Shown: positions 585-47,175 of the stretch, in pieces
How the letters are laid out: each line of letters opens with the position of its first letter
Position numbering within the stretch: the stretch's first letter is position 1
Source: a virus
Strand: one strand, 5' to 3'
Length of the DNA: 55,764 nucleotides
IMG/VR virus record: IMGVR_UViG_3300033402_000018
The notes under the pieces: generated by a model
Databases searched by the model: none
Told to the model about the DNA's origin: nothing
What the model saw: the letters and a program-made list of their open reading frames with translations, nothing else
Position numbers and translations under genes: made by a program

Positions 585-856
585 TGAGAAAGTTTTTCAA
601 GAAAAAGAAATACTCGTGGGAAGGCGTTAAGCACGCGATCCCGATTGACCAAGACATCTGGGATCACACCCAGCAATACGTCAAGGATCAGATCGCGATC
701 ATGAAACGCCACGGTTCGGAGCCTGACCCGCCGCTGACTGAGGCGCAGTTCCAAGACCTCGTGTATGTGACGGCACGGTATCCGCAGCAAGTGAGAAATC
801 TTCGAAAGAAGTACGAGGCACCAGAAGATGCGACTTTGCGGGCCAACGCAGTATAA
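584..856 (+). CDS. hypothetical protein
   Basis: internal ATG of ORF 398..856 sitting on a TGATG junction with the upstream stop; 90 aa; no motif. Confidence 0.5.
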   Translation: MRKFFKKKKYSWEGVKHAIPIDQDIWDHTQQYVKDQIAIMKRHGSEPDPPLTEAQFQDLVYVTARYPQQVRNLRKKYEAPEDATLRANAV

Positions 857-3384: not shown

Positions 3385-3716
3385 GCCAGACAGTTTACGT
3401 GCTAACGACCTTGATGGGGGAAAACCCGAAGCTGCCGAAAGAGTGGCGTCCTGTTGGCGTGGTAACAAGCCTCGACATCGCTGAGCAATGGGTCGCGCAC
3501 GGCGGGAACAACGATTGGATTCCGTTTGAGATTGACGATACCAGTTTGACCGGATTAAGCGACAACCCTTCAGTGTTTAAGCCCGCGCCGCCTACGCCGA
3601 ACGAAGAGAAGCTGGAAAAGGCCAACCAGCAATTGCAAGGCGTGATTCAGACGCTTCAGAAGCGACTCGAAAAGAAAAAGCCAAAGGCTTCCCTTTTGAA
3701 CAAGAAACGGAGATAA
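3381..3716 (+). CDS. hypothetical protein
   Basis: 111-aa ORF; ATGA overlap with upstream stop; basic C-terminal tail; no motif. Confidence 0.55.
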   Translation: MSQTVYVLTTLMGENPKLPKEWRPVGVVTSLDIAEQWVAHGGNNDWIPFEIDDTSLTGLSDNPSVFKPAPPTPNEEKLEKANQQLQGVIQTLQKRLEKKKPKASLLNKKRR

Positions 3717-3722
3717 TAGGGT

Positions 3723-4046
3723 ATGGTCACATTGACACCCGGAGCGGTAAAGAAAGTCAAGGAAATCATGGAGCAGCAAGACCCGAAGCCAGCCGCACTG
3801 CGTCTTGGCGTTATTGGCGGCGGATGCTCCGGCTTTCAGTATTCTATGCAGTTCGAGAATGAGAAGGGCATGATGGACAAGTCCTTCGAGTTCGACGGTC
3901 TTACGTTGATCGTTGACGCTACATCGTACATGTATCTCGACGGCTGCGAAGTTGATTACCTTGAGACGCTCGAAGCCAGCGGCTTCAAGTTCAACAACCC
4001 GAACGTGAAAAGCACCTGTGGGTGCGGTCAGAGCTTCAACGCATGA
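3723..4046 (+). CDS. A-type Fe-S cluster carrier (IscA/ErpA/HesB family)
   Basis: GGGCSGFQY and C-terminal CGCGQSF three-Cys signature; 107 aa. Confidence 0.9.
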   Translation: MVTLTPGAVKKVKEIMEQQDPKPAALRLGVIGGGCSGFQYSMQFENEKGMMDKSFEFDGLTLIVDATSYMYLDGCEVDYLETLEASGFKFNNPNVKSTCGCGQSFNA

Positions 4047-4219
4047 GCGAAGAGAATTTTGATTTCGCATTGGACTCATGGACTATCACGCCTGAAGAAG
4101 GCGAAAGAATTGCCCGTGATTTGCAACGACAGTATATCGAAGATCACATTAGGCAGTTCGGGGGCGTCACCCTGCTTTGCCTGCGGCCCAAGAAAGATGA
4201 AACCAATGATGGATTGTAA
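4043..4219 (+). CDS. hypothetical protein
   Basis: ATG 4043 forms ATGA overlap with the IscA-like stop; 58 aa acidic; in frame of ORF 4022..4219. Confidence 0.4.
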   Translation: MSEENFDFALDSWTITPEEGERIARDLQRQYIEDHIRQFGGVTLLCLRPKKDETNDGL

Positions 4220-4552
4220 ACCCAAGCCGAAGAGAGACGGTGGTAAGTCGGAACCGTCTTCGCGGCACGTTCCGCGACGATCCACCGAACTACGACAAGC
4301 CGATCTATGACCGTGATGGTAACCAGATCGGTGTGATTTATGATGCGCCTCCCGCGCCGGGGCCGAGCGGATTATCATGATTTGTTGCTCAATTTGTAAA
4401 GAAATGGTCGTATCTAGTGTTGAAGACCTCCGTTTGAGCGAAACGTTGGTCAGGATACAAGACCACTACAAGACGCATTCTTGGCTGCGACGTAAGCTTC
4501 ACAGGCTACAAACGTTGCCAGCGACATTGCGGCTGAAGAGATTTCAAAAAAC

Positions 4553-4969
4553 ATGTACTCTGAAAAAGTAATCGACCACTACAACAACCCGCGTAATGTT
4601 GGCTCGCTGGACAAAGCATCGCCAGACGTGGGGACAGGTCTGGTTGGTGCGCCGGAGTGCGGCGACGTAATGAAGCTTCAGATCAAGGTGGAAAACAATG
4701 TCATTGTTGACGCTAAGTTCAAAACTTTTGGCTGCGGCAGTGCTATTGCTTCTAGCTCGCTCGCGACTGAATGGGTTAAAGGCAAGACAACTGATGAAGC
4801 CCTCGCCATTAAAAACACCGAGATCGTCAAAGAACTCGCCCTCCCACCTGTAAAGATTCACTGTTCAGTGCTCGCCGAAGACGCGATTCGCGCCGCGATT
4901 GCTGACTGGAAAAAGAAGCAAGATGCCGAAAAAGCCAAAGAAGAAAAAGCCCATCACGAAGCGCGATAA
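4553..4969 (+). CDS. iscU: Fe-S cluster assembly scaffold IscU
   Basis: YSEKVIDHYNNPRNVG..GAPECGDVMKL..FKTFGCGSAIASSS..LPPVKIHCSVLAEDA; canonical Cys/Asp ligand set. Confidence 0.92.
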   Translation: MYSEKVIDHYNNPRNVGSLDKASPDVGTGLVGAPECGDVMKLQIKVENNVIVDAKFKTFGCGSAIASSSLATEWVKGKTTDEALAIKNTEIVKELALPPVKIHCSVLAEDAIRAAIADWKKKQDAEKAKEEKAHHEAR

Positions 4970-5116
4970 CTTCGACCGCAACTACATGCGCCACATTGTG
5001 GAAGAAGAGGAAGAAACGCTGTTCAAACTTCTGCAAGAAGACAAGCCCACCAAATCCTAATTTCTCCAGTATTAAAGCCTTTAGTAGGCGGTATTCCGCC
5101 TTCGAAAGGAACGACT

Positions 5117-5503
5117 ATGTACAAAAGACCCGAAAGAAAGCATAAACCGAACACAGAAAAGTGCCCGTTCTGCGACAAAGATTTCAAACCAATTGATCCG
5201 TGGCGCGAATCACAATGCGTGCTCAACAAGCCGCTCTGGATGGTGATCCCACCCGGCGGCGTCCATCTCGAATGCCCGGTTCACCCCGAGGGACATCATG
5301 TCTTCGGCAGCCCGGTCATCTACATGGATTCTCCTATCCGTGTTCGTGAGAACAACTTACCTGACCCGTTAAACGCGCCGTGGTGCGAGTACGACCGCAC
5401 GAAGTATTCAGGCGGCTGCACCTACGATCACGATTCCAGCAAGGATTTGACGTTCGATTCCACCAAACCCTTCGGAACCACGACAGGCTCGAATTGGCGG
5501 TAA
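5117..5503 (+). CDS. hypothetical protein
   Basis: 128-aa ORF, SD-like AAAGGA upstream, CPFCDK Cys pair; no family recognised. Confidence 0.55.
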   Translation: MYKRPERKHKPNTEKCPFCDKDFKPIDPWRESQCVLNKPLWMVIPPGGVHLECPVHPEGHHVFGSPVIYMDSPIRVRENNLPDPLNAPWCEYDRTKYSGGCTYDHDSSKDLTFDSTKPFGTTTGSNWR

Positions 5504-5524
5504 TCTAGGAAAATTTGGTATTAG

Positions 5525-6106
5525 GTGGGCATGAGTCAATATGATCGTGTCTACCTAGACCAATGCTACGCACTCGCCAAGAACAGCACATGTGTGAAGG
5601 CCAAAGTTGGCGCTCAAGTGCGCGGACCCTACGGCGACATGTCTGACCACCTGCTAGGTCAAGGTTTTAACCAATCCCCCAATCCTGAGTTTGCTGACTG
5701 CGGCAAGCTGTGCGCCGGGGGCATCCGCTGCGGCATTAAGTCCGGTACTCGCGCTGAACTCTGTTACGCCGTCCACGCGGAGCAATACGCACTACTTCAG
5801 GCCGGATCGCTCGCGAAAGGGGCCACGATCTATGTCGCTTCCTACGATGACAAAGGCGAGAAACGCCTGAAGAACGCTGAACTCCCGCTGGGGCACCCGA
5901 TGCACGGTTTCTACTGTTCGGTGTGTGCTAGGCTCATCTGGGCTGCGGGAATCGCACGTGTAGTGACGGACGGTGTAAAGGGCCCGGTTGTTCTCAGCCT
6001 GAATGACATCTGGAAGACCTCTTACGGCGTGGCGGACAGTATTGACAAGAAGTACAAATCCTGCGGTTGCGAAGTAGGCAATTGCATCTGTGATATTGAG
6101 ACCTAA
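5525..6106 (+). CDS. cytidine/deoxycytidylate deaminase-fold protein (divergent)
   Basis: HAEQYALLQ catalytic motif and distal YCSVCARLI CxxC pair; GTG 5525 or ATG 5531 start. Confidence 0.7.
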   Translation: MGMSQYDRVYLDQCYALAKNSTCVKAKVGAQVRGPYGDMSDHLLGQGFNQSPNPEFADCGKLCAGGIRCGIKSGTRAELCYAVHAEQYALLQAGSLAKGATIYVASYDDKGEKRLKNAELPLGHPMHGFYCSVCARLIWAAGIARVVTDGVKGPVVLSLNDIWKTSYGVADSIDKKYKSCGCEVGNCICDIET

Positions 6107-6639
6107 TGTCAAACCTCGCTGAACTCAAAGACCTGCCCAAAGAGCGGAAGAAGTATGTCGTTGGCTTCTTGATTGATCCCACGTTGTCTAAGGTGGTGCT
6201 CGTGCGTAAGAACCGACCTGACTATCAACGCGGTCTGCTCAACGGCGTGGGCGGGAAAGTCGGAGACACGATCCTAGACGAAACCACGGAAGAGGCGATG
6301 GCCCGTGAGTTCCAAGAAGAGACGGGTGGGGTTGATCTCAACTGGCGGCGGTTCTTGCACATGATGACACCCCGGTCAGACCTGACATTTTTCTACGCCA
6401 TCGGCAATGTTCACTGTGTCCGAACACAGACCGACGAAGAAGTAGCGGTGTATGACATTTCCGATGTGATGGATCGCTGCGATACGATGCCCAATGTTCG
6501 CTGGTGCATTCAGATGGCACGCTCTATTGAGTTCGGTGAGCACGCGGATTACTTTGAAGTGGCTGAGATTTTGGAGACAGACTTACCAGCGAATTTTCAT
6601 TTCATCCCGGATGCAGCGCTTGAAAAAGAAGACCTATGA
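6106..6639 (+). CDS. Nudix hydrolase
   Basis: Nudix box GDTILDETTEEAMAREFQEETGG fits GX5EX7REUXEEXGU. Confidence 0.85.
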   Translation: MSNLAELKDLPKERKKYVVGFLIDPTLSKVVLVRKNRPDYQRGLLNGVGGKVGDTILDETTEEAMAREFQEETGGVDLNWRRFLHMMTPRSDLTFFYAIGNVHCVRTQTDEEVAVYDISDVMDRCDTMPNVRWCIQMARSIEFGEHADYFEVAEILETDLPANFHFIPDAALEKEDL

Positions 6640-7574
6640 ACATTGAATCGAAACTGATACTTGCCAGCAAGAGCGAAGCAACAGGCATCACCCTTTACAC
6701 GTTTGTGCTCACGTACCCACGTGTCATCCTAGCTGAAGTAAACACGCATCGAATGCTCAGCCGCAACACCGCGTCATCTCGCGCTATTCCAGCCAAGAAA
6801 CAGCGGGAACGCGTGCTTACTGATCCGTTCGTGCCTGTCACAATTGGGGCGAATCAGAAAGGGATGCAGGCTGGTGAAGAGCTTGACGGCTGGCGTCGGT
6901 TTGTTGCGATCAACACGTGGAAACTTGCACGCTACCCAATGGTAGCGGCGTCGTGGGTACTCGACAAGGTTGGTGCGCACAAGCAAGTTGTGAACCGCAT
7001 TGTGGAGCCGTGGACGTTCACGCAGCAAGTTGTGACTTGCACCGACCTGAAGAATGTCTTCAAACTGCGCAACCACAAAGATGCAGAGCCACACTTTCAA
7101 ATCATCGCGAAACAGATGCAGATGCAAGCAGAGTGGGCCGAGAAATGGTTTAACACCCTTTCGTGGAACTCGGAGAACGCGCTTGACCGTAGATTAGAAA
7201 TCAACAACCAACTTGGTGTTGGTACTCTTCAGGTGCTAAAGCCGGGGGAGTGGCACATGCCGTTTGTTGATGAGAAGGACATCACAGACACAATCCTGAA
7301 CTCCATGCTGCATGACAGCACTGACGAATCCCTGAAGAAAATCAGCACAGCACGCTGCGCACGTGTCAGCTACTTTCTACCGGAGAGCGGCAAAAGGTCT
7401 GACCCTAAGCGTGACGTAGAGCTTTGCAATAAACTGTCCGGCTCCGGTCATTGGAGTCCGTTCGAGCACGTAGCCACGCCGACAAAAGAAGCGGATTACA
7501 TTGGCAATTTTAAGGGCTGGAAGCAGTATCGTAAAGAGTATCCGCAAGAGTCTGGAGGGGACCGTGGGAATTGA
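6636..7574 (+). CDS. thyX: flavin-dependent thymidylate synthase ThyX
   Basis: ThyX motif NTHRMLSRNTASSRA (RHRxxSxxxxSxR); 312 aa; ATGA overlap with Nudix stop. Confidence 0.92.
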   Translation: MNIESKLILASKSEATGITLYTFVLTYPRVILAEVNTHRMLSRNTASSRAIPAKKQRERVLTDPFVPVTIGANQKGMQAGEELDGWRRFVAINTWKLARYPMVAASWVLDKVGAHKQVVNRIVEPWTFTQQVVTCTDLKNVFKLRNHKDAEPHFQIIAKQMQMQAEWAEKWFNTLSWNSENALDRRLEINNQLGVGTLQVLKPGEWHMPFVDEKDITDTILNSMLHDSTDESLKKISTARCARVSYFLPESGKRSDPKRDVELCNKLSGSGHWSPFEHVATPTKEADYIGNFKGWKQYRKEYPQESGGDRGN

Positions 7575-7608
7575 AGGCTGGGGCAGATCATTTGGGGCGA
7601 TTCAAGCG

Positions 7609-8094
7609 ATGGAGAAACGCCTTGCGAAGCAGCGCGAGTGGGACATCTACTACCTGAACATGGCCCGTTACGTCTCCACGAAGTCGAAGGACCCAAGCAC
7701 GCAAACCGGAGCGTGCATCGTGCGCCCGGACAACTCTTTGTGTTCCATTGGCTTCAACGGCTTCCCCAAAGGCATGAATGACGCCCCGGAGCTTTACGCC
7801 AACCGTGATGTAAAGTATTCTCGCACAGTGCATTGCGAAGTCAATGCCGAAATCTTCACCAGAGAAGACCTGAAGGGGTTTACGCTTTACACGTGGCCTT
7901 TCTCATCTTGCGACCGTTGCGCGGTGACGATGATTCAGGCGGGAATTGCACGTTTTGTGTTTCCAACCATGCCGCCAGAGAAGGCGTCCCGTTGGGCTGA
8001 AAACATGGCGATAGCGCAAGGCTACATGCGGGAAGCTGGGCGGGAAGTGGTTGAGATACCGTATGAACAGATTCCCAAGGTTGTGCTAGAATAA
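7609..8094 (+). CDS. dCMP deaminase
   Basis: YYLNMA..SKDPSTQTGACIV..VHCEVNAE..SCDRCAVTMIQAGI (HxE + CxxC); start ambiguous (7501, GTG 7564 or ATG 7609). Confidence 0.85.
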   Translation: MEKRLAKQREWDIYYLNMARYVSTKSKDPSTQTGACIVRPDNSLCSIGFNGFPKGMNDAPELYANRDVKYSRTVHCEVNAEIFTREDLKGFTLYTWPFSSCDRCAVTMIQAGIARFVFPTMPPEKASRWAENMAIAQGYMREAGREVVEIPYEQIPKVVLE

Positions 8095-8099
8095 ACGAT

Positions 8100-9131
8100 A
8101 TGGCTAAAAAACAGGTTCGAACAACGCGTAAGGAAGATAAGCCGAGACCGTACAAGGTCGATTATTTCGAAGAGAACGAAATGATCGACAACGACAAGGC
8201 GTTGGTCCGTAGCCGTGTCGTCCGCGCCGTTACGTCTGCGCAGGCGTCCAATCTTGTGATGCTCGAAGATGGGTGGGAATCGCGTAACCGATTTATTGTT
8301 CGTGCGTCTCGCTTTTATGGGGAGTTGAAACAAGCGCAGGAAAACAAGTACGTCCCCGTTGAAGACCTGTTCCCTGAAAAGAAGGCACTCGATGTCATGG
8401 CGAACATCGAGGTTATCCGCGCCGCCGCTAAATCCCGTACAGCCGCTCCCGTAGCGCCAGCCACTCCAGTTGCATCAAGCAACACGTGCCGCTGGCATGG
8501 CGATCAGTACCTTGATGCTTCAGGTCGTTGCACGCGTCTTGACCCATCCTTCATGTCTGCGGTGTGCGCTCCGTCTGTGCCTACGTCGGGGCCGGACAGT
8601 CAGGCAACCAAGGATGTCATGGCGGATTTCAATGGCATGATGTCTCATGACGAGCACGAACAGAGAATGGACAACTTCGTGCCGGACATCACGCCGGGAC
8701 TAAGAACTTCACAGTACCAAGCCGCAACGGGAAACAAGACTCCAATCGTTCGGACAGCGGACGGGCAACTTGGTGTGCTTACTCCGAGCCTTTCGTTCCC
8801 CGACAAGCCAGTGGTGCCTACACAGCCAGCCGTGTTTGACGGTGACGAGCACCACATTGATCTGGACGAGTGCGCACCAGTGATTCATCCCGCGCCGGAC
8901 GCGGGCTGTTCATGTGAGCCGCACGGCGAGACTGATCCAAGCTGTGTGGAACACGGCATTACAGCGCCGCCGATTGACACAACGGGTCAGGTGCTCACAT
9001 CTATGGGTACTTCGGCTCCATGGCAAACCCCGGACGACCCGCTCCCTACGTGGGCGAAGGTGCTCCTATTCGGGGGTGCGGCATTCTTCGCAGTGGTGAT
9101 AGCACTCGCAGTCCTGAAGTGTGGACATTAA
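8100..9131 (+). CDS. hypothetical protein with C-terminal membrane anchor
   Basis: 343 aa; Pro/Thr/Ser-rich centre; single C-terminal TM (VLLFGGAAFFAVVIALAVL). Confidence 0.6.
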   Translation: MAKKQVRTTRKEDKPRPYKVDYFEENEMIDNDKALVRSRVVRAVTSAQASNLVMLEDGWESRNRFIVRASRFYGELKQAQENKYVPVEDLFPEKKALDVMANIEVIRAAAKSRTAAPVAPATPVASSNTCRWHGDQYLDASGRCTRLDPSFMSAVCAPSVPTSGPDSQATKDVMADFNGMMSHDEHEQRMDNFVPDITPGLRTSQYQAATGNKTPIVRTADGQLGVLTPSLSFPDKPVVPTQPAVFDGDEHHIDLDECAPVIHPAPDAGCSCEPHGETDPSCVEHGITAPPIDTTGQVLTSMGTSAPWQTPDDPLPTWAKVLLFGGAAFFAVVIALAVLKCGH

Positions 9132-9219
9132 ACAAGTGGGTCAATGACCACTTGTTCGAGTTGGTAATTGCGTTGTTGGTTTTGCCCGTGGTTATTGCGT
9201 ATCTTTTCGGTCATCACTG

Positions 9220-9426
9220 ATGGAACAGCACTACTGCCAACGAATCCCAAAGCCGGGGCCAAACACGCTTTCTCTGACCTCCATAGAAGGCGACCCGGAC
9301 GCCTGTGGTAAGATCGCGCACTTCAAATACAGACCAGAGGACCCATACGATGTCTTTGAGCCGGACAAAGTTTGGTGGTTGTGTGCGGAGTGCTATGATT
9401 TTGCCATGATCTTCGACAAATTCTAA
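9220..9426 (+). CDS. hypothetical protein
   Basis: 68-aa ORF, TGATG junction; Cys pair CAECYDF; no motif. Confidence 0.5.
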   Translation: MEQHYCQRIPKPGPNTLSLTSIEGDPDACGKIAHFKYRPEDPYDVFEPDKVWWLCAECYDFAMIFDKF

Positions 9427-9441
9427 ATTTCTAAGATTCTA

Positions 9442-9458
9442 GCCCTCTTGTAGAGGGC
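9442..9458 (+). other. intergenic stem-loop
   Basis: GCCCTCT-tgt-AGAGGGC perfect 7-bp hairpin between stop 9426 and ATG 9461; no U-tract. Confidence 0.6.
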
Positions 9459-9460
9459 AA

Positions 9461-10027
9461 ATGGTTTATTTCATCATCGAAGCATCGCATCTTTTCCGCG
9501 CCGGGACAAAGTATCAGACCCAGTTTTTCGTGATGGATGTTGTGAATTTCATCCATCGCAAGTTCAGGGGTTTCTGCTCCGGCTGCCCAGAGCCTTGCCC
9601 GGAAATGGTGCCACATGTGATTGTTCTTCACGGCTCTGTTAAGCAGGAACAGGGCGACCGCTATGCCGCCGCGCTCGAACGCCACGGCGTGAAGGTTGTG
9701 CGTATGCGCCCGATTGAGTCGGACAGCGCAGGCAAATGGTTTTTCAAGCCAGCTTGGTACATGCACAAAATGATGGGGACGGACATCCCTGAAGGCTCTG
9801 ATGTTGTTCTGGTGGGGTTTCACAATATCCGCTACCTAAAGTTCCTCGAAAAGTATGCCACTCGATACAACCTGCATGTGGCCGCCTTTCAAACGCCAAG
9901 CGCCAAGCAAGGGATGATGCACGTTCCTGATGAGTTTAAGCCATTACTCAAAAGCGTAATTGACCTTGACATGGATGTCCCCGGCATCAAAGCAGAGTTC
10001 AAGAAAAAGCTCAGTAATAAAGCTTGA
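9461..10027 (+). CDS. hypothetical protein
   Basis: 188-aa ORF; only a weak LabA/NYN-like flavour (DVVLVGFHNIRYLKFLEK..HVAAF), not enough to call. Confidence 0.6.
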   Translation: MVYFIIEASHLFRAGTKYQTQFFVMDVVNFIHRKFRGFCSGCPEPCPEMVPHVIVLHGSVKQEQGDRYAAALERHGVKVVRMRPIESDSAGKWFFKPAWYMHKMMGTDIPEGSDVVLVGFHNIRYLKFLEKYATRYNLHVAAFQTPSAKQGMMHVPDEFKPLLKSVIDLDMDVPGIKAEFKKKLSNKA

Positions 10028-10130
10028 GCGGTTCACGGGCCTAAAGCTTCGTTGGTTAGCACCCCCCGATCTTATGTTCGCTCGCCAGAAGACCGGGAGA
10101 AGATGCAACCCGTGGACCGTCAAGGACTCA

Positions 10131-10515
10131 ATGAACGCTAACGAATACCAGACGCTCGCTGAAGTTACCGAGAGCAAAGATTTTGAAGCAATCGGTAAAC
10201 GCATGTCAACCATCCGTAGCATCCGTCTTCTCCACGCGACAACTTGGCATTTCCAGCGAATGCGGTGAAGTCGCTGACGCACTCAAGAAGCATATCTTCT
10301 ACGGCAAGGAACTGGACGTAGTAAACGTTGCCGAAGAGATCGGCGATATTTGCTGGTATCTGGCGCTCGCTTGCAATGAGCTTGGTATGGCATTCGAGCA
10401 GGACATCTTGGAAGTCAACATCGCCAAGCTGAAGGCCCGTTACGGGGACAAGTTCTCCGAGCACGCGGCCATGCACCGTGACCTCAACAAGGAACGTGCT
10501 ATACTCGAAGGATGA
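10131..10515 (+). pseudogene. MazG-like all-alpha NTP pyrophosphohydrolase interrupted by a +1 frame change
   Basis: N-terminal helix MNANEYQTLAEVTES..IRLLHAT in frame of ORF 9960..10268. The core LGISSECGEVADALKKHIFYGKELD..EEIGDICWYLA..NIAKLKARYGDKF is in frame of ORF 10183..10515. Frames meet near ACAACTT (~10246). The second frame has only a TTG start. Confidence 0.6.
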
Positions 10516-11253: not shown

Positions 11254-11261
11254 GATTGCCC

Positions 11262-11846
11262 ATGCCTCGTTACATCGACATTGACCAAGAGCGTTTGTCC
11301 CACCTTCATGAGGGTTTAGAGCTTCTGGAGATGGTTGACCGTGAAGCAATCGCGGGACTGGACTTGTGCGTTTACGGGATCACCAACAACGCGTCCATTC
11401 TTGATTCCGCTAAAGAAGCCATCGCTGATTCTGAAGAAGTAGCGGAGCAGGACGTAGCCCTTACTGAGATTGCTGTAGCCATTCCGATCTCGTCTGACAC
11501 TATCTACGCGCTGAACGGTTCCGGCATTCGCCTCAGCCGCGAGGATTTTGCATACATGGGTTCCGGTGGTGAAGGTGTCCGCACCATGACTTTCGCTTTC
11601 GCTCACTTCAAATCGACAGTGACCCTGAATTCATTTTCCAAGCTCGCAATTGCTTCGTCTGATTCGTGGCTGGATGATTTCTTGCGTAAGGAAGGCTCCG
11701 GGCAGCAAGCGAAGGTCACTCCCGCTGTTCACCGCACCGAAGAAGCCACAGTTCCCGGCGCTCCCCCGGCACCAGAAATTCCGAAACGTACATCCGTTAT
11801 GGGTGGGCCCCGTCTGGCGTCCTTGATTGACGAATTTCTTGCATGA
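11262..11846 (+). CDS. hypothetical protein
   Basis: ATG 11262 within ORF 11256..11846 (TTG at 11256); 194 aa; no motif. Confidence 0.6.
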   Translation: MPRYIDIDQERLSHLHEGLELLEMVDREAIAGLDLCVYGITNNASILDSAKEAIADSEEVAEQDVALTEIAVAIPISSDTIYALNGSGIRLSREDFAYMGSGGEGVRTMTFAFAHFKSTVTLNSFSKLAIASSDSWLDDFLRKEGSGQQAKVTPAVHRTEEATVPGAPPAPEIPKRTSVMGGPRLASLIDEFLA

Positions 11847-12298
11847 AACTAACGCGGCAACAGCGTGAGCAACTCCGCATGAAGTTTGGCGGGAAGTGTG
11901 CCTACTGCGGCTGCGATCTTCCTGAAAAAGGCTGGCACGCCGATCATGTTGAGCCTGTCTACCGTGAGTGGTGGAAAAGCACCAAATGGTGGAAAGAAGC
12001 GCACGGCACCAAGTGGTCGGTCAACGAAGCTGGTAACCTTGAGCAACACGCTGTCCCGCTGGAGAAACCGGGGTTCGAGCGCCCGGAAAATGACACACTG
12101 GAGAACCTGTTCCCGTCCTGTGTTCCCTGCAATCTGGACAAGCACGCGAGTCCCTTGGAAGTATGGCGGCAGCAGCTTGAAGGTCGCGTTGATGTATGTC
12201 GTAGAAACTATTCTGCATTCCGCCACGCCGAACGTTTCGGTTTAGTGCAGCAAATCCACAAACCTGTGGTATTCTGGTTTGAGCAATACTCCGGCTAG
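11843..12298 (+). CDS. HNH endonuclease
   Basis: CAYCGC..WHADHVEP..NLFPSCVPCNLDKH His-Me finger layout; ATGA overlap. Confidence 0.8.
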   Translation: MKLTRQQREQLRMKFGGKCAYCGCDLPEKGWHADHVEPVYREWWKSTKWWKEAHGTKWSVNEAGNLEQHAVPLEKPGFERPENDTLENLFPSCVPCNLDKHASPLEVWRQQLEGRVDVCRRNYSAFRHAERFGLVQQIHKPVVFWFEQYSG

Positions 12299-12351
12299 AC
12301 ATCCCCGAAAATTAAGAGTATCATTCGGTTTAGAACTGGCATCTAACCGAC

Positions 12352-13185
12352 ATGGCGAACAAACCCAGAACCGACTCGCTGGGTGACAGAATGAAGCGCT
12401 ACGAAGCAACCACGCGCTTCCTGTTGCCGCGCCGCACTTACACAATTCTTCGCGTTGATGGTCGTGCGTTCCACACGTGGACTCGCGGGCTTGACCGTCC
12501 CTATGACCGCAACTTCATGGCGTGCATGAACGAAGCCGCGCTCGAACTTTGCCAGCAGATCGCGGGAGCGCAGTTCGCTTACGTGCAGTCCGACGAAATC
12601 AGCCTGTTGGCTGTGGACTTCCTTGACATCAAAACCGAGCCGTGGTTTGAAGGCGGCGTGCAGAAATGGGCCAGCGTCGGCGCATCCATCGCAACGATGG
12701 CGTTCAACAATTGCTTGCTTCGGCTGAAGGGGGCAAACCTCGACGAGTCTGAGCTTAAGATCACCAAGAAGCTCCCGAACGCCACGTTCGACGCCCGCGT
12801 GTTCACCATCCCAGACTTGGTGGAAGTGGAAAATTATTTCGTGTGGCGGCAGCAGGATGCGGAACGCAACTCCGTCACAATGCTGGCGCAGAGCTACGCT
12901 TCCCACAAGCAACTCATGGGGAAAAATCGCGCCGCGCAGCATGAGATCATCCACAAAGCCGGGGACAATTGGGCGAAGCATCCTGTGCGTTTCAAGCATG
13001 GCGCTGTGATCCGCCGTGCCGCTGAAAACGAAGTCTGGACGGAAGTCGGCACCCATCATTTCAACTGGGTTGTGGACGAAGACACCCCAGCCTTCACCAA
13101 AGACCGCGCTTACATCCGTGGTCTGGTTCCTGTTGTTTGGGACAACGACCTTCTGGTCAGAAAGGCGGCAGCGAATGGAGAATAG
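12352..13185 (+). CDS. Thg1-like tRNA-His guanylyltransferase / 3'-5' RNA polymerase
   Basis: GDRMKRYE..LRVDGRAFHTWTRGL..AYVQSDEISLL..FDARVFTIP..NYFVWRQQDAERNS matches Thg1 hallmarks (RxDGxxFH, SDE, FDxR, WRQxD). Confidence 0.88.
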   Translation: MANKPRTDSLGDRMKRYEATTRFLLPRRTYTILRVDGRAFHTWTRGLDRPYDRNFMACMNEAALELCQQIAGAQFAYVQSDEISLLAVDFLDIKTEPWFEGGVQKWASVGASIATMAFNNCLLRLKGANLDESELKITKKLPNATFDARVFTIPDLVEVENYFVWRQQDAERNSVTMLAQSYASHKQLMGKNRAAQHEIIHKAGDNWAKHPVRFKHGAVIRRAAENEVWTEVGTHHFNWVVDEDTPAFTKDRAYIRGLVPVVWDNDLLVRKAAANGE

Positions 13186-13516
13186 CCCCAAGCTCGATTA
13201 TCGCGTCATTTCTGTAAACGACGCTGCATACCGCTTCCGCGTTCGCCAGCTTGAAACTGATTTCATGTTTGCGGATGGCTCCGTAAAGACGTTCACCAAT
13301 TGGGACGTGAAGGGTGTACGCGAGCGCCACTACATGGAAGAGTACATCAACGTTCCGGTTGAGGAATACCTGCGTTCCGCAGTTGGCGAGCAGGAAATCG
13401 TGGCGTATGGTGTAAAGATGTCAGACATTCGCAAGTTCATCTCGGATAAAGCGGAGTTCTTTGAAGACCTTCTGCTGGAAGCCGCGAGCAACGTTCCCCT
13501 CGATGGGGACGAATAG
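13175..13516 (+). CDS. hypothetical protein
   Basis: internal ATG 13175 of ORF 13016..13516, 11-nt overlap with Thg1 end; 113 aa. Confidence 0.55.
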   Translation: MENSPKLDYRVISVNDAAYRFRVRQLETDFMFADGSVKTFTNWDVKGVRERHYMEEYINVPVEEYLRSAVGEQEIVAYGVKMSDIRKFISDKAEFFEDLLLEAASNVPLDGDE

Positions 13517-15830: not shown

Positions 15831-16373
15831 ATGGCGCAGGACGTTAATTTCAAGAAAACCGCAGCAACAGAGACGCAGTACAACACAGGCGCACAGCGGG
15901 ACAATCGAGTAGGTAAAGGGGCGTTTCACTGGATGCCGTGGGACGCCCTGTTTTGTGTCTCCCGCATCTATGAGCTTGGCAACAAAGGCCGGAGCAAAAC
16001 CGGAGACGGCAACGACCGTAATTGGGAAAACGGGATGCCGCTCATTGACCTGTTGCAGAGCGCGATCAATCACATCTCAGCCCACATCTCAGGCGACCGC
16101 AGCGAGCCGCACATCTCACAGGCAATCTGGAACCTATTGAACTACCTTCAGACTTCGATCTGGGTTATCCTAGGGTTCCGCCCCAAGGAACTCAACAAGC
16201 TGCCAGACCATCGCCATGCTTGGAAGCCGGGGGATGAGCCGCCATGCCCGTTGTCACCACAAGAGATTGAGTGGTTACAGTTCAAGGGTGTGATCCCAAA
16301 AGAGCCAGAGTTGCATGATTGCGGGCCTGAACCAGCCGTTCTTAAGGTGGTATTGCCCGGATCGGAACGCTGA
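15831..16373 (+). CDS. DUF5664-like (dATP/dGTP diphosphohydrolase N-terminal domain family) protein
   Basis: TGAQRDNRVGKGAFHWMPWDAL..NWENGMPLIDLLQSAINHI..PHISQAIWNLLNYLQ matches the GAxRDxxxGK..NWxxG..H..WN pattern recalled for this phage family. Confidence 0.55.
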   Translation: MAQDVNFKKTAATETQYNTGAQRDNRVGKGAFHWMPWDALFCVSRIYELGNKGRSKTGDGNDRNWENGMPLIDLLQSAINHISAHISGDRSEPHISQAIWNLLNYLQTSIWVILGFRPKELNKLPDHRHAWKPGDEPPCPLSPQEIEWLQFKGVIPKEPELHDCGPEPAVLKVVLPGSER

Positions 16374-16416: not shown

Positions 16417-19125
16417 ATGCCCTCCCTTCTTCACAAGCTGAGCTTCTTTGACCCCGAGGTCGGACGCTACTTCGTCGTAGCGAGCGACGGTTTTTACTGG
16501 AAAGAAGCCAAAAAATCACCTGAAGACTCCAAGGTTACAAAGCTGCTGGCTCAATACGGCTGGCAACTCCGAAACGGCAATGACGTGTGGTTGATCTTTA
16601 GACGCCCACGGACGCCGGGGGAGTTGTTCGTAATTCGTGGGGAGAAACGCTGGTATTATGATCTCCCAGATTCCGACCTGTTTGACGTAGCGGCGGAGGG
16701 TAGGGGTCTCGACAGCCTTCAACAGGCAATCGAGAGCGGTAAGCTGCCGGGAGCAAAAGCCAAGGGAATGACCGCCAGCCCCACCACAACGGCCGTCAAT
16801 AACGCCGGAAATGGTCACGGCTCCATGCCGGACGACCAGCTTGAACCAGATACCAAGTACGGCATGATGGGCCGACCGGACTACGGTTCCGGGTACACCG
16901 GAATCATGAACGAGTTGAATGCTGAAGATGATGAATGGAGCAAGGAAGCGTCCATTCTGGTTCTGAACGGCAGCGTAAAGATGGGTTCCACGACAGCGGA
17001 AACCTCGCTCTACGTCACAGGAGCGGAGTATCAAGGCTTGACGCTCACCAAGTTTACCTTCAGCCCTGACCGTCACAAGGCAAAGATTTTCCCAAAGCTT
17101 ACCGCGCAGAATCTCAGTCAACAGATTTTCGGTAAGTTCGCCACGGTTGCTCGTGTCGTGCTCGCCGCCGACTATCGCGAGATGTTTAAGGCTACCCTTG
17201 CGCTCGATCCCAAGTACGATAAAGTAATCAACCGTGAAATTGAGTGGGCTAAGCGCGTCCTCAAGAAGCAGGATCGCATCGTATGGTATCTCCGTTGGGT
17301 TCGTTTGGCTTGCGTGCATGACATGCTTGGCAGGGCGCATCTGGACGAGAACCCGGCTGGCGTTACGGCGGCTGCGGCTGCTCCCGCCCCGGCCCCAAAT
17401 CAGCCCCAGCAGCCCGCGCAGCAACAAAAGAAGCCGCAGACACGCACAGAGCAGATCAAAGCGTTGTACCAGCAGTACGACCGCGAGATGACGAATAAGA
17501 GCGGCGGCGGTGAACTTGTCACGCTGACTGACTTGGTTCACATGAAGCAGAGCCTTGAACACTTCTACTCACTGCACTCGCCAGAGATTGACAACTATAG
17601 CCCCAAGTACGAAAGCTGGAATGATCTCTACGGAAAATTCTCCGTGTTCGAGCAGGCTTGGAAGGAAGAAGCCGGGAAAGCACTCAAACCCAAAGAGGGT
17701 GATGAGATTTGGATTCAGTTCCCGGACGGCTGGGCGTGGTGGCATTTGCCACGCGCATCATGCGAAGACGAAGCTGCGGCGATGGGTCACTGCGGAAACT
17801 CACCTAATGCCAAAGCCAAGGGTGTTTCAATTCTCAGTTTGCGTAGACCGATCAAACGCGGCAATGAGACTCGCTGGGAGCCGCATCTAACTTTCATCCT
17901 GCACGGCACTGTGCTGGGCGAGATGAAAGGTAAGGGAAACGACAAGCCAGCGCCACAGTACCACAAGTACATCATCCCTTTGCTGCTGGATAAACGTATC
18001 ACTGGGGTTGGCGGCGGCGGTTATCTCGCAGAGCACAACTTTTCAATGAACGATTTGACGCCGGAACAACGCGCAGAAATCTCCAAGGCGAAGCCATCAA
18101 TGGGTATGAGCCTAAGCGGTTACTATAAAGCCTACGGCATGGACGATACATTAGCCGCCAGAATCAAGGCGATCCTTGGCATGGACTCGGCAACTTATGA
18201 TCCACAGTGGGGTTTTGCCCTGCGTTCGTGGGATACGCGTGAAGATTTCCTCGATGATGTGGGTGATTCCGAAGCATCGAAGGCCGCCACGTTCGTCCAG
18301 ACCGGGGAGCATGACTACGATGACCCAGACATTGACGAGTTGACCGACCTACTGGACGGCTTTGATGAAGTGGAACTGCATAACCTAGGGTTGCAGTTGC
18401 AGTACGATTATCCACGCGAGATGCGTGAGTGGTACGCGAACTTCAATCCAAATGATCGTGACGCGCTTAAGATGGCGCTTACGGACCTGTACAACGCGTA
18501 CATCAAGGGAGCCAAAGCACAGCATTCAAACCAGCGCAAAGGCTTGGAAAAGAAGATCAAAGAACTGGAAGCCAATGTGTCTGAAGACCCGGCGGCAGCG
18601 AACGAAGTTACTCCGCTGAAAGAGAAGCTGAAGAATTTGCGTCTCGATAAAGTCTGGGAGAAAGTTCCAGCACTGCTTGAATTGTATTCTGCTTATTTGT
18701 CAGGCGGGCCCGATCAAAACACAGTGGATAAACTACTGCGTGAAGCGCTCGAACGTGGCGTGGACGAGAGCGGGACTGAGATTCGTCGTACCAAGGACGG
18801 CAAGTGGCTGCAACTTTTGAGCGAAGAACAGGCAGTTGCCGACGCCGAAGCCGCGCAGAATCGTCACGGCACCGGAGGCTACTATGAGGCCCCGGAAATT
18901 AACGTGAGCATTCCGTATGATTGGGATGAGTTCGATGAAGAACGCGCAAGGGAATCCGCGAAGGAATATTTCAGTCGTCCGCCGAAGCGCCCGGAAGTTG
19001 ATAAGCGGCAGCGCCGTTTGTTCCCGGAACCAAAGACGGAAGAGTCCGCAAAGCGGCACGGAATCACCGTTTCCCATGCAAAGAACCCGCTTCTGCGCCG
19101 CAAGTCGTTAAAAACAAAGGTGTAG
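16417..19125 (+). CDS. large hypothetical protein (902 aa)
   Basis: longest ORF in the window. Low-complexity linker AAAAAPAPAPNQPQQPAQQQKKPQ. Segment EDEAAAMGHCGNS..GVSILSLRRP..LGEMKGKGNDKP is reminiscent of PcfJ-like domains (tentative). Confidence 0.75.
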   Translation: MPSLLHKLSFFDPEVGRYFVVASDGFYWKEAKKSPEDSKVTKLLAQYGWQLRNGNDVWLIFRRPRTPGELFVIRGEKRWYYDLPDSDLFDVAAEGRGLDSLQQAIESGKLPGAKAKGMTASPTTTAVNNAGNGHGSMPDDQLEPDTKYGMMGRPDYGSGYTGIMNELNAEDDEWSKEASILVLNGSVKMGSTTAETSLYVTGAEYQGLTLTKFTFSPDRHKAKIFPKLTAQNLSQQIFGKFATVARVVLAADYREMFKATLALDPKYDKVINREIEWAKRVLKKQDRIVWYLRWVRLACVHDMLGRAHLDENPAGVTAAAAAPAPAPNQPQQPAQQQKKPQTRTEQIKALYQQYDREMTNKSGGGELVTLTDLVHMKQSLEHFYSLHSPEIDNYSPKYESWNDLYGKFSVFEQAWKEEAGKALKPKEGDEIWIQFPDGWAWWHLPRASCEDEAAAMGHCGNSPNAKAKGVSILSLRRPIKRGNETRWEPHLTFILHGTVLGEMKGKGNDKPAPQYHKYIIPLLLDKRITGVGGGGYLAEHNFSMNDLTPEQRAEISKAKPSMGMSLSGYYKAYGMDDTLAARIKAILGMDSATYDPQWGFALRSWDTREDFLDDVGDSEASKAATFVQTGEHDYDDPDIDELTDLLDGFDEVELHNLGLQLQYDYPREMREWYANFNPNDRDALKMALTDLYNAYIKGAKAQHSNQRKGLEKKIKELEANVSEDPAAANEVTPLKEKLKNLRLDKVWEKVPALLELYSAYLSGGPDQNTVDKLLREALERGVDESGTEIRRTKDGKWLQLLSEEQAVADAEAAQNRHGTGGYYEAPEINVSIPYDWDEFDEERARESAKEYFSRPPKRPEVDKRQRRLFPEPKTEESAKRHGITVSHAKNPLLRRKSLKTKV

Positions 19126-42872: not shown

Positions 42873-42874
42873 TC

Positions 42875-43084: not shown

Positions 43085-43087
43085 TAA

Positions 43088-43674: not shown

Positions 43675-43692
43675 TACCTGAACCCTTTGTGT

Positions 43693-43899: not shown

Positions 43900-43925
43900 A
43901 CCACTCATTGTAAAAGCTTTATTTC

Positions 43926-47171: not shown

Positions 47172-47175
47172 ACCG

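What the first reader, a model, noticed from the sequence alone, without database searches (positions are those of the whole stretch)
12352..13185. Thg1-like 3'-5' polymerase: candidate tRNA 5'-end repair enzyme in a phage
Seen in sequence: all Thg1 hallmarks are present (RVDGRAFH, SDEIS, FDARV, WRQQD).

Established knowledge: bacterial and archaeal Thg1-like proteins repair 5'-truncated tRNAs by templated 3'-5' addition, rather than only adding G-1 to tRNA-His.

Inference: the window also holds the tRNA operon, PTH2 (37505-37768) and a Pol-beta-type RNA-repair-like nucleotidyltransferase (52726-53562). Together these look like a translation-apparatus maintenance kit, plausibly a counter-measure to host tRNA-targeting defences.
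Basis: partly seen in the sequence, partly recalled or inferred. Interest (0 to 1): 0.55.

Follow-up and report, generated by a model that had tools for sequence, protein, structure and literature searches.

The report
Bacterial-type Thg1-like enzyme in huge phage
A giant-phage gene encodes an intact, apparently active Thg1-like "reverse" (3'-5') RNA polymerase of the bacterial tRNA 5'-end-repair type. Such genes are already annotated in over 160 phage genomes and the repair-kit idea is already published, so this is a sound but ordinary find whose role in infection is still untested.

Summary
The ORF at 12352-13185 (+, 277 aa) is real, and all four quoted motifs are present. It is a clear Thg1-superfamily member (Pfam E=1.9e-26; PHROG 4717 E=1.6e-76). 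It belongs to the bacterial TLP branch: the best PDB match is Bacillus thuringiensis TLP (E=1.4e-51; model TM 0.92-0.93). All BtTLP catalytic and nucleotide-binding residues are conserved except K43->R49, and the eukaryotic HINNLYN motif is absent. It belongs to a large virus-specific clade found on ~450-kb phage contigs. The source phage's own tRNA-His, 4 kb beyond the window edge, encodes G-1 opposite C73, and the phage tRNAs have perfectly paired acceptor stems. So neither obligatory G-1 addition nor 5'-editing is needed, and templated 5'-end repair or quality control is the best reading. However, these genes lie 23-40 kb from the Thg1-like gene and are not operonic with it. No RNA ligase or kinase was found in the 73 kb available. 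No known anti-phage tRNase makes a TLP substrate. The "kit" hypothesis was already published (Iyer et al. 2021). Verdict: new member of a known kind, of modest interest. Side finds: a minimal HisRS next to tRNA-His, and a SerRS-like core mislabelled as HisRS.

The parts
12352..13185 (+). Thg1-like protein (TLP) coding sequence, 277 aa
   Evidence: ORF and translation. Pfam PF04446 E=1.9e-26. PHROG 4717 E=1.6e-76. PDB 4kgk E=1.4e-51. AF2 model pLDDT 84.6, with Foldseek best hit 4kgm at TM 0.92-0.93.
12451..12474 (+). RVDGRAFH motif: R34 (incoming-NTP phosphate contact), D36 (metal carboxylate 1), H41 (contacts the ribose 3'-OH)
   Evidence: Coordinates. Residue roles come from BtTLP R28/D30/H35 in PMC3701042. 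R34 and H41 are invariant and D36 is conserved in >=90% of the clade.
12589..12603 (+). SDEIS motif: D81 (metal carboxylate 2) and E82 (third carboxylate)
   Evidence: Coordinates. These equal BtTLP D75/E76. Invariant in 39 clade members.
12787..12801 (+). FDARV motif: R149, which equals BtTLP R131 (triphosphate contact in the nucleotidyl-transfer site)
12844..12882 (+). WRQQDAERNSVTM: R166 (BtTLP R147) and M177 (BtTLP M158, Met as in TLPs). This stretch replaces the eukaryotic HINNLYN signature.
   Evidence: Alignments to 4kgk and to C. albicans Thg1 3wbz. Residue roles. Coordinates.
13123..13182 (+). C-terminal tail LVPVVWDNDLLVRKAAANGE. It is conserved in the phage clade, lies beyond the region that aligns to BtTLP, and is modelled with low confidence. 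Function unknown.
   Evidence: Alignments A1/A4. pLDDT 52-59 over the last 20 residues.
12296..12324 (+). Sigma-70-like promoter match (TAGACA-17-TATCAT, 10 of 12) 28 nt upstream of the ATG. No clear Shine-Dalgarno sequence. This is a consensus match only.
11843..12298 (+). HNH endonuclease gene, a lineage-specific insertion immediately upstream of the TLP gene. Context only.
   Evidence: PHROG 2118 E=4.7e-52 and Pfam HNH. Absent at this position in relatives L005-L007.
11256..11846 (+). Conserved 196-aa protein of unknown function, usually just upstream of the TLP gene. It is syntenic with the TLP but not strictly linked to it.
   Evidence: 64-66% identity in L005-L007. About 8 kb away in L016 and about 1 kb away in L018. 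No Pfam, PHROG, NCBIfam or PADLOC hit.
13175..13516 (+). 113-aa protein of unknown function whose ATG overlaps the TLP stop codon. Present in four relatives examined (L005-L007 and L017) and absent in two (L016 and L018).
35639..36311 (+). tRNA cluster: Ser-GCT, Ser-CGA, Ser-GGA, Ser-TGA and Leu-TAA. All have perfect acceptor stems and an encoded CCA. Context: possible substrates, not shown to be linked.
37505..37768 (+). Short (87 aa) PTH2-type peptidyl-tRNA hydrolase homolog. Context only.
   Evidence: Pfam PF01981 E=5e-14. Human Bit1/PTH2 1q7s E=1.3e-8, with two internal deletions. Below the NCBIfam equivalog cut-offs.
52726..53562 (+). RlaP-family Pol-beta nucleotidyltransferase. Context only.
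   Evidence: Pfam PF10127 E=1.7e-17 and PHROG 388 E=2.3e-46. The GS...DxD motif is visible in the translation.

Best explanation
The gene encodes a catalytically competent, bacterial-type Thg1-like protein (TLP). By homology to BtTLP, the mechanism would be as follows. The enzyme activates the 5'-monophosphate of a tRNA that lacks one or more 5' nucleotides, using ATP or GTP. It then adds the missing nucleotides in the 3'-to-5' direction, using the intact 3' strand of the acceptor stem as a Watson-Crick template. Catalysis uses two metal ions held by D36 and D81, with E82 and R34 positioning the incoming NTP. In this phage the most likely role is 5'-end quality control and repair of the tRNA pool during infection. 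That pool includes the phage's own >=20 tRNAs, which are transcribed from dense arrays, and the role would include re-adding G-1 to tRNA-His opposite C73 if it is lost. What is shown here: family, branch, fold, conservation of active-site residues, and the nature of the phage tRNAs. What is inferred: the activity, the substrates and the physiological role.
For: Family and branch: Pfam Thg1 E=1.9e-26 and PHROG 4717 E=1.6e-76. The PDB ranking is BtTLP 4kgk 1.4e-51, far ahead of C. albicans Thg1 1.3e-14, archaeal TLP 8e-10 and human Thg1 2e-5. The AF2 model (pLDDT 84.6) superimposes on BtTLP at TM 0.92-0.93 and rmsd ~2 A, against 0.65-0.81 for eukaryotic Thg1 and archaeal TLP.

Active site: BtTLP residues E12, R16, R28, D30, H35, D75, E76, K99, R131, R147 and M158 (PMC3701042) map to E18, R22, R34, D36, H41, D81, E82, K105, R149, R166 and M177. 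Except M177 (variable between M and L), these are invariant or conserved in >=90% of 39 clade members at 58-77% identity, which indicates purifying selection.

Biochemical precedent: BtTLP prefers 5'-truncated tRNAs, is template-dependent and is not restricted to tRNA-His (PMC3061083).

Substrate context: the same phage (L012, 99.985% identical over 13 kb) carries 15 more tRNA genes with spacers down to 0-12 nt. Its tRNA-His has an encoded G-1 and C73. Nineteen tRNAs have perfect acceptor stems. So the enzyme is not needed for maturation and fits a repair or quality-control role.

Loose recurrent proximity to RNA ligases in other phages: RtcB 3 kb away in Bacillus phage Goe8, an RnlA-like ligase 4 kb away in Stenotrophomonas RAS14, and a PF09414 ligase 3-5 kb away in the divergent clade members L016 and L018.
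Against: No activity data exist for this or any phage TLP in the searchable literature. The in-vivo role of bacterial TLPs is itself unknown. The ATP-positioning lysine (BtTLP K43) is Arg here (R49), although most clade members keep Lys. The gene sits in a conserved nucleotide-metabolism block (dCMP deaminases, ThyX, NUDIX, MazG, dGTP_diPhyd_N, HD proteins), not beside tRNA or RNA-repair genes. No source of 5'-truncated tRNAs is identified. Sinorhizobium phage Phosso carries about 70 tRNAs but no TLP, so a large tRNA set does not by itself require one.
Confidence: 0.6

Rival explanations
1. Counter-defence kit. The TLP, RlaP, PTH2 and the phage tRNAs act together to undo damage done to tRNAs by host immune nucleases.
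For: All the named components exist in the window. The hypothesis is published for jumbo phages (PMC7824862; PMC2904730). tRNA-targeting immunity is widespread. RNA ligases lie within 3-5 kb of the TLP gene in four other phages.
Against: The components are 23-40 kb apart and not co-operonic. The TLP's conserved neighbours are nucleotide-metabolism genes. No RNA ligase or polynucleotide kinase was found in the 73 kb available for this phage. Described anti-phage tRNases cut anticodon loops or stems, D-loops, T-loops, the 3' strand of the acceptor stem or the CCA tail, and none of these lesions can be repaired by templated 5' extension (PMC12851939 title and abstract). There are no PADLOC matches.
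Confidence: 0.2
2. Dedicated guardian of tRNA-His identity. The TLP keeps G-1 on the phage's canonical tRNA-His so that the phage's minimal HisRS can charge it. That HisRS has no anticodon-binding domain and can therefore read only the acceptor end.
For: The phage has a tRNA-His with G-1:C73 directly downstream of a HisRS catalytic core. The core matches E. coli HisRS residues 64-135 and 246-288 (E=7e-20) and lacks the insertion and anticodon-binding domains. The mini HisRS and TLP relatives lie on the same 465,019-bp and 447,784-bp contigs. BtTLP performs template-dependent N-1 addition on tRNA-His (PMC3061083).
Against: G-1 is genome-encoded, so no addition is needed in normal maturation. 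Phage Phosso has the same mini-HisRS/tRNA-His pair but no TLP anywhere in its 469 kb. The TLP and the mini HisRS are 47 kb apart. Most TLP-bearing phages in GenBank lack the mini HisRS (164 records against 3). BtTLP kinetically prefers truncated tRNAs over -1 addition.
Confidence: 0.12
3. A non-tRNA role, for example 5'-end extension or repair of other small RNAs, or a nucleotide-metabolism or signalling role suggested by its genomic block and by the kinship of Thg1 with GGDEF and CRISPR-polymerase palm domains.
For: The gene is embedded in a conserved nucleotide-metabolism block. The Thg1 palm is related to GGDEF and Cas10 (PMC2904730). Weak Foldseek hits to cyclases and GGDEF appear at E~1e-2. 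The clade has a conserved C-terminal tail that BtTLP lacks.
Against: The protein is 40-44% identical to BtTLP with the full set of tRNA-repair active-site residues. Huge-phage early regions are long syntenic blocks, so adjacency carries little functional weight there.
Confidence: 0.06
4. A decayed or inactive remnant, or a chance ORF.
For: None beyond the K43->R49 change.
Against: E-values range from 1e-26 to 1e-76. The exact protein occurs on 7 independent metagenome contigs. Catalytic positions are invariant or nearly so across a clade at 58-77% identity. The fold is predicted with confidence.
Confidence: 0.02

Closest known systems
Bacillus thuringiensis Thg1-like protein, BtTLP (PDB 4KGK/4KGM; Rao 2011 PMC3061083; Hyde 2013 PMC3701042)
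   Same: The proteins are 40-44% identical over about 250 aa. The fold is the same (TM 0.92-0.93). The metal carboxylates and the activation and transfer-site residues match, Met is present at the M158 position, and there is no HINNLYN motif.
   Different: The window protein is viral rather than cellular. K43 is Arg. There is a variable insertion at about aa 122-140. A roughly 20-aa C-terminal tail is conserved in the phage clade. The closest cellular TLPs reach only <=51% identity. No biochemistry exists for the phage protein.
Phage 'tRNA-His guanylyltransferase' genes (PHROG 4717; e.g. Bacillus phages Goe8, Bc431v3 and G, Caulobacter CcrColossus-like phages, Xanthomonas XacN1, Lak phages)
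   Same: Same family (E=1.6e-76 to the PHROG). Homologs occur in 164 GenBank phage records, mostly large or jumbo phages rich in tRNA genes.
   Different: Identity to any deposited phage is only 29-44%. The window protein belongs to a separate, uncultured clade (55-78% identity) found on contigs of about 405-465 kb and one of 894 kb. The usual product name implies G-1 addition, which the evidence here does not favour.
Eukaryotic Thg1 (yeast, human, C. albicans; PDB 3OTB, 3WBZ)
   Same: Same superfamily, same palm fold and same three carboxylates.
   Different: Identity is only 19-24%. The HINNLYN motif is missing, and Asn at the M158-equivalent position is replaced by Met. Eukaryotic Thg1 adds a non-templated G-1 opposite A73 on tRNA-His. 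Here tRNA-His has C73 and an encoded G-1.
Jumbo-phage RNA-repair/ribosome-rescue gene set (Iyer, Anantharaman, Krishnan, Burroughs and Aravind 2021, PMC7824862)
   Same: The window holds three of the listed parts (Thg1, RlaP, PTH2) plus tRNA genes.
   Different: No RNA ligase, polynucleotide kinase or CCA-adding enzyme was found in the 73 kb examined. The parts are dispersed. The set is a bioinformatic proposal, not a demonstrated system.
Mitochondrial tRNA 5'-editing TLPs of Dictyostelium and Acanthamoeba
   Same: Templated 3'-5' repair of acceptor-stem 5' nucleotides by TLPs (background in PMC5041481 and PMC6471195, as listed).
   Different: Those systems act on tRNA genes with encoded acceptor-stem mismatches. 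All 19 parsable tRNAs of this phage have perfectly paired acceptor stems.

Membership tests
Thg1 superfamily (3'-5' nucleotidyltransferases, Pfam PF04446) | Significant match to the family profile above the curated threshold | tested here: met
   93 bits against a cut-off of 29.2, E=1.9e-26, covering profile positions 2-130 of 130. PHROG 4717 E=1.6e-76.
Thg1 superfamily | Three conserved active-site carboxylates (hThg1 D29/D76/E77; BtTLP D30/D75/E76) | tested here: met
   D36, D81 and E82 are present. D81 and E82 are invariant and D36 is conserved in >=90% of 39 clade members.
Thg1 superfamily | RRM-like polymerase palm fold as in solved Thg1/TLP structures | tested here: met
   AF2 model pLDDT 84.6, pTM 0.82. 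The top 32 Foldseek hits are all Thg1/TLP structures, the best being 4kgm at TM 0.92-0.93. This is a prediction, not a solved structure.
Bacterial/archaeal TLP branch (as opposed to eukaryotic Thg1) | Closer to characterised TLPs than to eukaryotic Thg1, with the HINNLYN motif absent and Met rather than Asn at the BtTLP M158 position | tested here: met
   4kgk E=1.4e-51 against 3wbz 1.3e-14 and 3otb 2e-5. The sequence DAERNSVTM aligns with BtTLP DASKNSISM and with C. albicans DCHINNLYN. M177 is confirmed.
Bacterial/archaeal TLP branch | Residues for 5'-end activation and nucleotidyl transfer (BtTLP E12, R16, R28, H35, K43, K99, R131, R147) | tested here: met
   All are conserved (E18, R22, R34, H41, K105, R149, R166) except K43->R49, a conservative change. 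Most clade members keep Lys.
Bacterial/archaeal TLP branch | Template-dependent 3'-5' addition to 5'-truncated tRNAs | not testable with these tools
   This needs an enzyme assay. The only precedent is BtTLP/MaTLP (PMC3061083).
Bacterial/archaeal TLP branch | Oligomeric assembly (dimer of dimers) with cross-subunit contacts to the nucleotide | not tested
   Only a monomer was modelled. The cross-subunit residues R16' and K99' of BtTLP are conserved as R22 and K105.
Dedicated tRNA-His G-1-adding enzyme (functional class implied by the usual annotation) | A cognate tRNA-His gene that lacks an encoded G-1, so that post-transcriptional addition is required | tested here: not met
   The phage tRNA-His (L012 17090-17167, window-equivalent 59815-59892) has G at -1, C73 and an encoded CCA. 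The host's tRNA-His is unknown.
tRNA 5'-editing system (mitochondrial type) | tRNA genes with mismatches in the first three acceptor-stem pairs | tested here: not met
   19 of 19 parsable phage tRNAs have fully paired 7-bp acceptor stems.
Phage RNA-repair module (RlaP plus RNA ligase plus end-healing enzymes) | RNA ligase and/or polynucleotide kinase-phosphatase encoded with the nucleotidyltransferases | tested here: not met
   No Pfam or PHROG RNA-ligase or PNK hit among the roughly 50 window ORFs scanned. tblastn with the clade's own PF09414 ligase finds nothing in the window, L012 or L014. The rest of the genome (probably about 400 kb) could not be examined.
Known anti-phage defence components (PADLOC) | Match to a defence-system protein model | tested here: not met
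   No hit for the TLP, RlaP, PTH2 or the flanking unknown proteins.

The most novel reading that the evidence does not exclude
The TLP is one arm of a phage-autonomous histidine-decoding unit. The unit would consist of a canonical tRNA-His (G-1:C73), a stripped-down HisRS with no anticodon-binding domain that can read only the acceptor end, and a 3'-5' polymerase that restores G-1 whenever processing or damage removes it. This would make histidine decoding independent of the host's own tRNA-His identity rules. A second reading is also not excluded: the virus-specific TLP clade may answer a still-undiscovered host activity that trims tRNA 5' ends.
Probability: 0.12. Interest if true: 0.6.

Novelty: new member of a known kind. 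Interest (0 to 1): 0.3.

Why it matters
The biological role of bacterial-type TLPs is unknown even in bacteria, and no phage TLP has been characterised. This gene belongs to a strongly conserved, virus-specific clade: thousands of metagenomic homologs, with the nearest relatives on ~450-kb phage genomes. That conservation shows that 3'-5' polymerisation is under selection during infection. It also offers a setting in which the enzyme's natural substrates could be found. Practically, the routine product name "tRNA-His guanylyltransferase" probably misdescribes the function. If the histidine-module or counter-defence readings proved true, the gene would reveal either a phage-borne orthogonal decoding unit or a new class of tRNA-directed immunity. 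On present evidence, though, this is a well-annotated family with an already-published hypothesis.

Tried and rejected
1. 5'-editing of phage tRNAs: rejected, because every acceptor stem is perfectly paired.

2. Obligatory G-1 addition: rejected, because G-1 is encoded opposite C73.

3. Flanking unknown proteins (196 aa upstream, 113 aa downstream) as dedicated partners: rejected. They drift to 1-8 kb away or are absent in the more divergent relatives L016 and L018, and they match no family.

4. RNA ligase or PNK in this phage: none found in 73 kb.

5. The 209-aa ORF at 828-1457, labelled 'histidyl tRNA synthetase' in PHROGs and RefSeq, as a histidine link to Thg1: rejected. It has no similarity to the mini HisRS, its profile hits SerRS, and its fold matches SerRS/PylRS/PheRS cores with no HisRS in the top 50.

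6. Mini HisRS and TLP as an obligate pair: weakened. Phage Phosso has the mini HisRS and tRNA-His but no TLP in its whole 469-kb genome.

7. Host inference: failed. There was no nucleotide match in the phage collection. Bacterial TLP loci from Bryobacteraceae, Terriglobia, Streptomyces and others share only the TLP gene, with no synteny.

8. Schlafen/type II tRNA idea for the Ser and Leu-TAA tRNA set: the bacterial Schlafens characterised so far cut anticodon arms or T-loops of many tRNAs, not type II tRNAs specifically. It remains speculation.

9. NCBIfam has no model that matches the TLP.
Full report
**Observation.** The window has an ATG-initiated ORF at 12352-13185 on the + strand, encoding 277 aa. 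The match to the Thg1 family is far beyond chance. Pfam PF04446 scores 93 bits against a cut-off of 29.2, E=1.9e-26, across the whole 130-position model, with a weak sub-threshold match to the Thg1 C-terminal domain. PHROG 4717 gives E=1.6e-76. The longer antisense ORF at 12343-13191 is a shadow of this gene. Almost all long ORFs in the window are on the + strand and GC content is an even 51-57%.

**Which kind of Thg1.** Against all PDB sequences, the best match is the Bacillus thuringiensis Thg1-like protein (4kgk, E=1.4e-51, alignable over aa 8-259). It is far ahead of Candida Thg1 (1.3e-14), an archaeal TLP (8e-10), yeast Thg1 (1.2e-8) and human Thg1 (2e-5). Where eukaryotic Thg1 has WRQVDCHINNLYN, this protein has WRQQDAERNSVTM, like BtTLP's WRQQDASKNSISM. 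An AlphaFold2 model built on 39 clade members (pLDDT 84.6, pTM 0.82) superimposes on BtTLP at TM 0.92-0.93 and rmsd about 2 A. Against eukaryotic Thg1 and archaeal TLP it reaches TM 0.65-0.81.

Hyde et al. 2013 (PMC3701042) assign roles to BtTLP residues E12, R16', R28, D30, H35, K43, D75, E76, K99', R131, R147 and M158. These map to E18, R22, R34, D36, H41, R49, D81, E82, K105, R149, R166 and M177. All are conserved. The one exception is the ATP-positioning lysine, which is Arg here, while most clade members keep Lys. Across 39 homologs at 58-77% identity, most of these positions are invariant and the rest are conserved in at least 90% of sequences; the exceptions are R22, R49 and M177, which vary between similar residues.

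Two features set the phage clade apart from BtTLP. One is a variable insertion around aa 122-140. The other is a conserved C-terminal tail (LVPxIWxxDLLVRKAAA), which is modelled with low confidence.

**Where it comes from.** The region has no nucleotide match in 50,697 deposited phage genomes. The exact protein occurs on seven metagenome contigs of up to 128 kb. About 7,600 homologs score E<=1e-10. The nearest 120 are 55-78% identical, and many lie on contigs of 405-465 kb, with one of 894 kb.

These relatives are syntenic with the window. The shared gene order is: nucleoside deoxyribosyltransferase-like, Fe-S assembly genes, two dCMP-deaminase-like genes, NUDIX, ThyX, dUTPase or MazG, a ~195-aa unknown, the TLP, a ~113-aa unknown, UPF0114, dGTP_diPhyd_N, an HD protein, an AAA ATPase and a DNA ligase. 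The window is therefore a piece of an uncultured huge phage. In species-representative bacterial and archaeal genomes the closest relatives reach only 51% identity or less (Streptomyces, Bryobacteraceae and Terriglobia MAGs, and others), and they share no neighbouring genes with the window. The clade thus looks virus-specific.

**How new is a phage Thg1?** Not new. tblastn finds homologs at 29-44% identity in 164 deposited phage records. These include 46 Bacillus, 15 Prevotella Lak, 13 Caulobacter, 11 Mycobacterium and 7 Brevundimonas phages, and most are already annotated as tRNA-His guanylyltransferase. Anantharaman et al. [quoted passage not shown] Iyer et al. 2021 list RlaP, the CCA-adding enzyme, Thg1 and PTH2 together as jumbo-phage RNA-repair and ribosome-rescue adaptations (PMC7824862). 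I found no experimental study of any phage TLP.

**The "kit".** Each cited component is real.
- The ORF at 37505-37768 is a short (87 aa) PTH2. It matches Pfam at E=5e-14 and human Bit1/PTH2 1q7s at E=1.3e-8 with two internal deletions, but falls below the NCBIfam equivalog cut-offs.
- The ORF at 52726-53562 is an RlaP-family nucleotidyltransferase (PF10127 E=1.7e-17, PHROG 388 E=2.3e-46).
- Five tRNA genes lie at 35639-36311.

But these lie 23, 25 and 40 kb from the TLP gene. The TLP's conserved neighbours are nucleotide-metabolism genes. The two flanking unknown proteins are only loosely linked to it: in L016 and L018 the upstream one lies 8 kb and 1 kb away and the downstream one is missing.

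According to Iyer et al., RlaP works with RNA ligases. No ligase, polynucleotide kinase or CCA-adding enzyme appears among about 50 window ORFs scanned with Pfam or PHROGs. tblastn with the clade's own PF09414 ligase finds nothing in the window or in its 9.2-kb left and 7.8-kb right extensions. Ligases do lie 3-5 kb from the TLP in two divergent clade members and in two unrelated deposited phages. That is a weak but recurrent hint of an RNA-repair association.

The tRNases of anti-phage systems described so far cut:
- anticodon loops or arms (and the discussion quoted);
- D-loops;
- T-loops (Cash, PMC13462974);
- the 3' strand of the acceptor stem, 6-7 nt from the CCA (retron Eco2, PMC12916289);
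- the CCA tail (Cas12a3, PMC12851939).

None of these leaves a 5'-truncated tRNA with an intact template strand, which is the only lesion a TLP can mend. The counter-defence reading therefore remains an inference with no identified opponent.

**Tests that discriminate between functions.** Locus L012 is 99.985% identical to window 42726-55764 and extends it by 7.8 kb. That extension holds 15 more tRNA genes. One is a tRNA-His(GTG), at window-equivalent 59815-59892, with G at position -1, discriminator C73 and an encoded CCA. This is the standard bacterial arrangement, in which G-1 is genome-encoded (PMC3061083), so post-transcriptional G-1 addition is not required. Nineteen of the twenty predicted tRNAs parse cleanly, and all nineteen have seven perfectly paired acceptor-stem positions and an encoded CCA. 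The twentieth is an 86-nt Arg-ACG call that Rfam did not confirm. Mitochondrial-style 5'-editing is therefore not needed either.

What remains is repair or quality control of 5' ends. This matches BtTLP's kinetic preference for truncated tRNAs of any identity. It is also plausible for tRNAs cut out of arrays with spacers of 0-12 nt. That last link is my inference.

**A histidine link examined and mostly set aside.** Directly upstream of the tRNA-His lies a HisRS catalytic core. It is 155 aa as called, and probably about 195 aa from an upstream start codon. It matches E. coli HisRS residues 64-135 and 246-288 (E=7e-20), and lacks the insertion domain and the anticodon-binding domain. The family is large and tightly conserved: 1,804 homologs, the top 120 at 65-99% identity. 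Members lie on the same 465,019-bp and 447,784-bp contigs as TLP relatives. A synthetase that can see only the acceptor end would depend entirely on G-1 and C73, and a TLP could restore G-1.

However, the cultured Sinorhizobium phage Phosso (469 kb) has the same mini HisRS (52% identity) next to a canonical tRNA-His, yet has no TLP anywhere in its genome. The pair therefore does not need a TLP. I keep this reading as a low-probability rival.

**Conclusion.** The gene encodes an intact TLP of the bacterial type, almost certainly active. Its most likely job is templated restoration of missing tRNA 5' nucleotides during infection. A dedicated tRNA-His-maturation role is disfavoured. The counter-defence kit is possible but unsupported by linkage or by any known lesion, and it is already in the literature. 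This is a new member of a known kind, and interest is modest.

Noticed in passing
L012:16523-17167 (same phage; window-equivalent 59248-59892, just beyond the right edge): A minimal HisRS consisting of the catalytic core only, with no insertion or anticodon-binding domain (E=7e-20 to E. coli HisRS). It sits directly upstream of a canonical tRNA-His (G-1, C73). The family is large and highly conserved (1,804 homologs, top 120 at 65-99% identity) and also occurs in Hahella chromosomes at 70% identity.
   Followed up: partly
Sinorhizobium phage Phosso PV764938.1: L019:3746-4686 and L070:19192-19265: Phosso carries two tRNA-His genes. One is canonical (G-1, C73) and lies next to its mini HisRS. 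The other is the alpha-proteobacterial host type (T at -1, G1:U72, A73). [quoted passage not shown] Phosso has no Thg1 homolog. No paper on Phosso was found.
   Followed up: partly
window 828-1457 (+): This 209-aa protein belongs to PHROG 4806, which is named 'histidyl tRNA synthetase', as are its RefSeq homologs in Caulobacter phages. That name looks wrong. A 43-sequence profile hits SerRS catalytic domains (best E=9e-7). The AF2 model (pLDDT 93) matches SerRS, PylRS and PheRS cores, with no HisRS in the top 50. It is a bare class II core without a tRNA-binding arm. Homologs occur in 276 phage records.
   Followed up: yes
window 35639-36311; L012:16253-20757: The window's tRNA set is all four tRNA-Ser isoacceptors plus a Leu-TAA that has a short (class I-like) variable arm. 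In the neighbouring array, Trp (91 nt), Gln (89 nt), Asn (86 nt) and Arg-CCT (88 nt) have long variable arms instead. Ser and Leu are the type II tRNAs preferred by human SLFN11 (mentioned in PMC13462974), but the bacterial Schlafens characterised so far cut elsewhere.
   Followed up: partly
window 50013-52460 (+): An 815-aa protein carries a Major Vault Protein shoulder domain (PF11978, E=3e-26) and a Vault_3 repeat (E=5.5e-11). It has no PHROG match and lies immediately upstream of RlaP. A vault-like protein in a phage is unusual.
   Followed up: no
window 16417-19125 (+): A 902-aa ORF with no Pfam or PHROG hit. It occupies the slot after dGTP_diPhyd_N. In that slot, relatives L005 and L007 have a GP88-family protein (sharing only the N-terminal ~250 aa with this ORF), and relatives L016 and L018 have an RNA ligase.
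   Followed up: partly
window 2827-10515 and 15831-16373: A dense nucleotide-metabolism block is conserved across the clade. It holds a nucleoside 2-deoxyribosyltransferase-like gene, two dCMP-deaminase-like genes, NUDIX, ThyX, MazG, dGTP_diPhyd_N and several HD proteins. This may point to modified DNA bases. Fe-S assembly genes (Fe-S_biosyn, NifU_N) are embedded in the block.
   Followed up: no
window 11843-12298 (+); window 36278-36514 (-): An HNH endonuclease is inserted between the conserved 196-aa gene and the TLP gene in this lineage only. A second small HNH-like ORF (…LDHRDGDRKNNKLDNLRLLCPNCH…) lies on the minus strand right after tRNA-Leu. A further HNH gene sits inside the outer tRNA array (L012:19412-19960).
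   Followed up: partly
window 37505-37768 (+): The PTH2 homolog is unusually short: 87 aa against about 115, with two internal deletions relative to human PTH2. It scores below the NCBIfam equivalog cut-offs, so its activity is uncertain.
   Followed up: partly
window 1480-2190 (+) and 2187-2819 (+): A dual-specificity (Cys-based) phosphatase (PF00782, E=1.2e-14) and an HD-domain protein directly follow the SerRS-like core gene. Phosphatases of this family include RNA 5'-end phosphatases, but this was not examined.
   Followed up: no
window 13123-13182 (+): The phage TLP clade has a conserved C-terminal tail (LVPxIWxxDLLVRKAAA) that extends beyond the region aligning to BtTLP and is modelled with low confidence. 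It could be an interaction motif.
   Followed up: no
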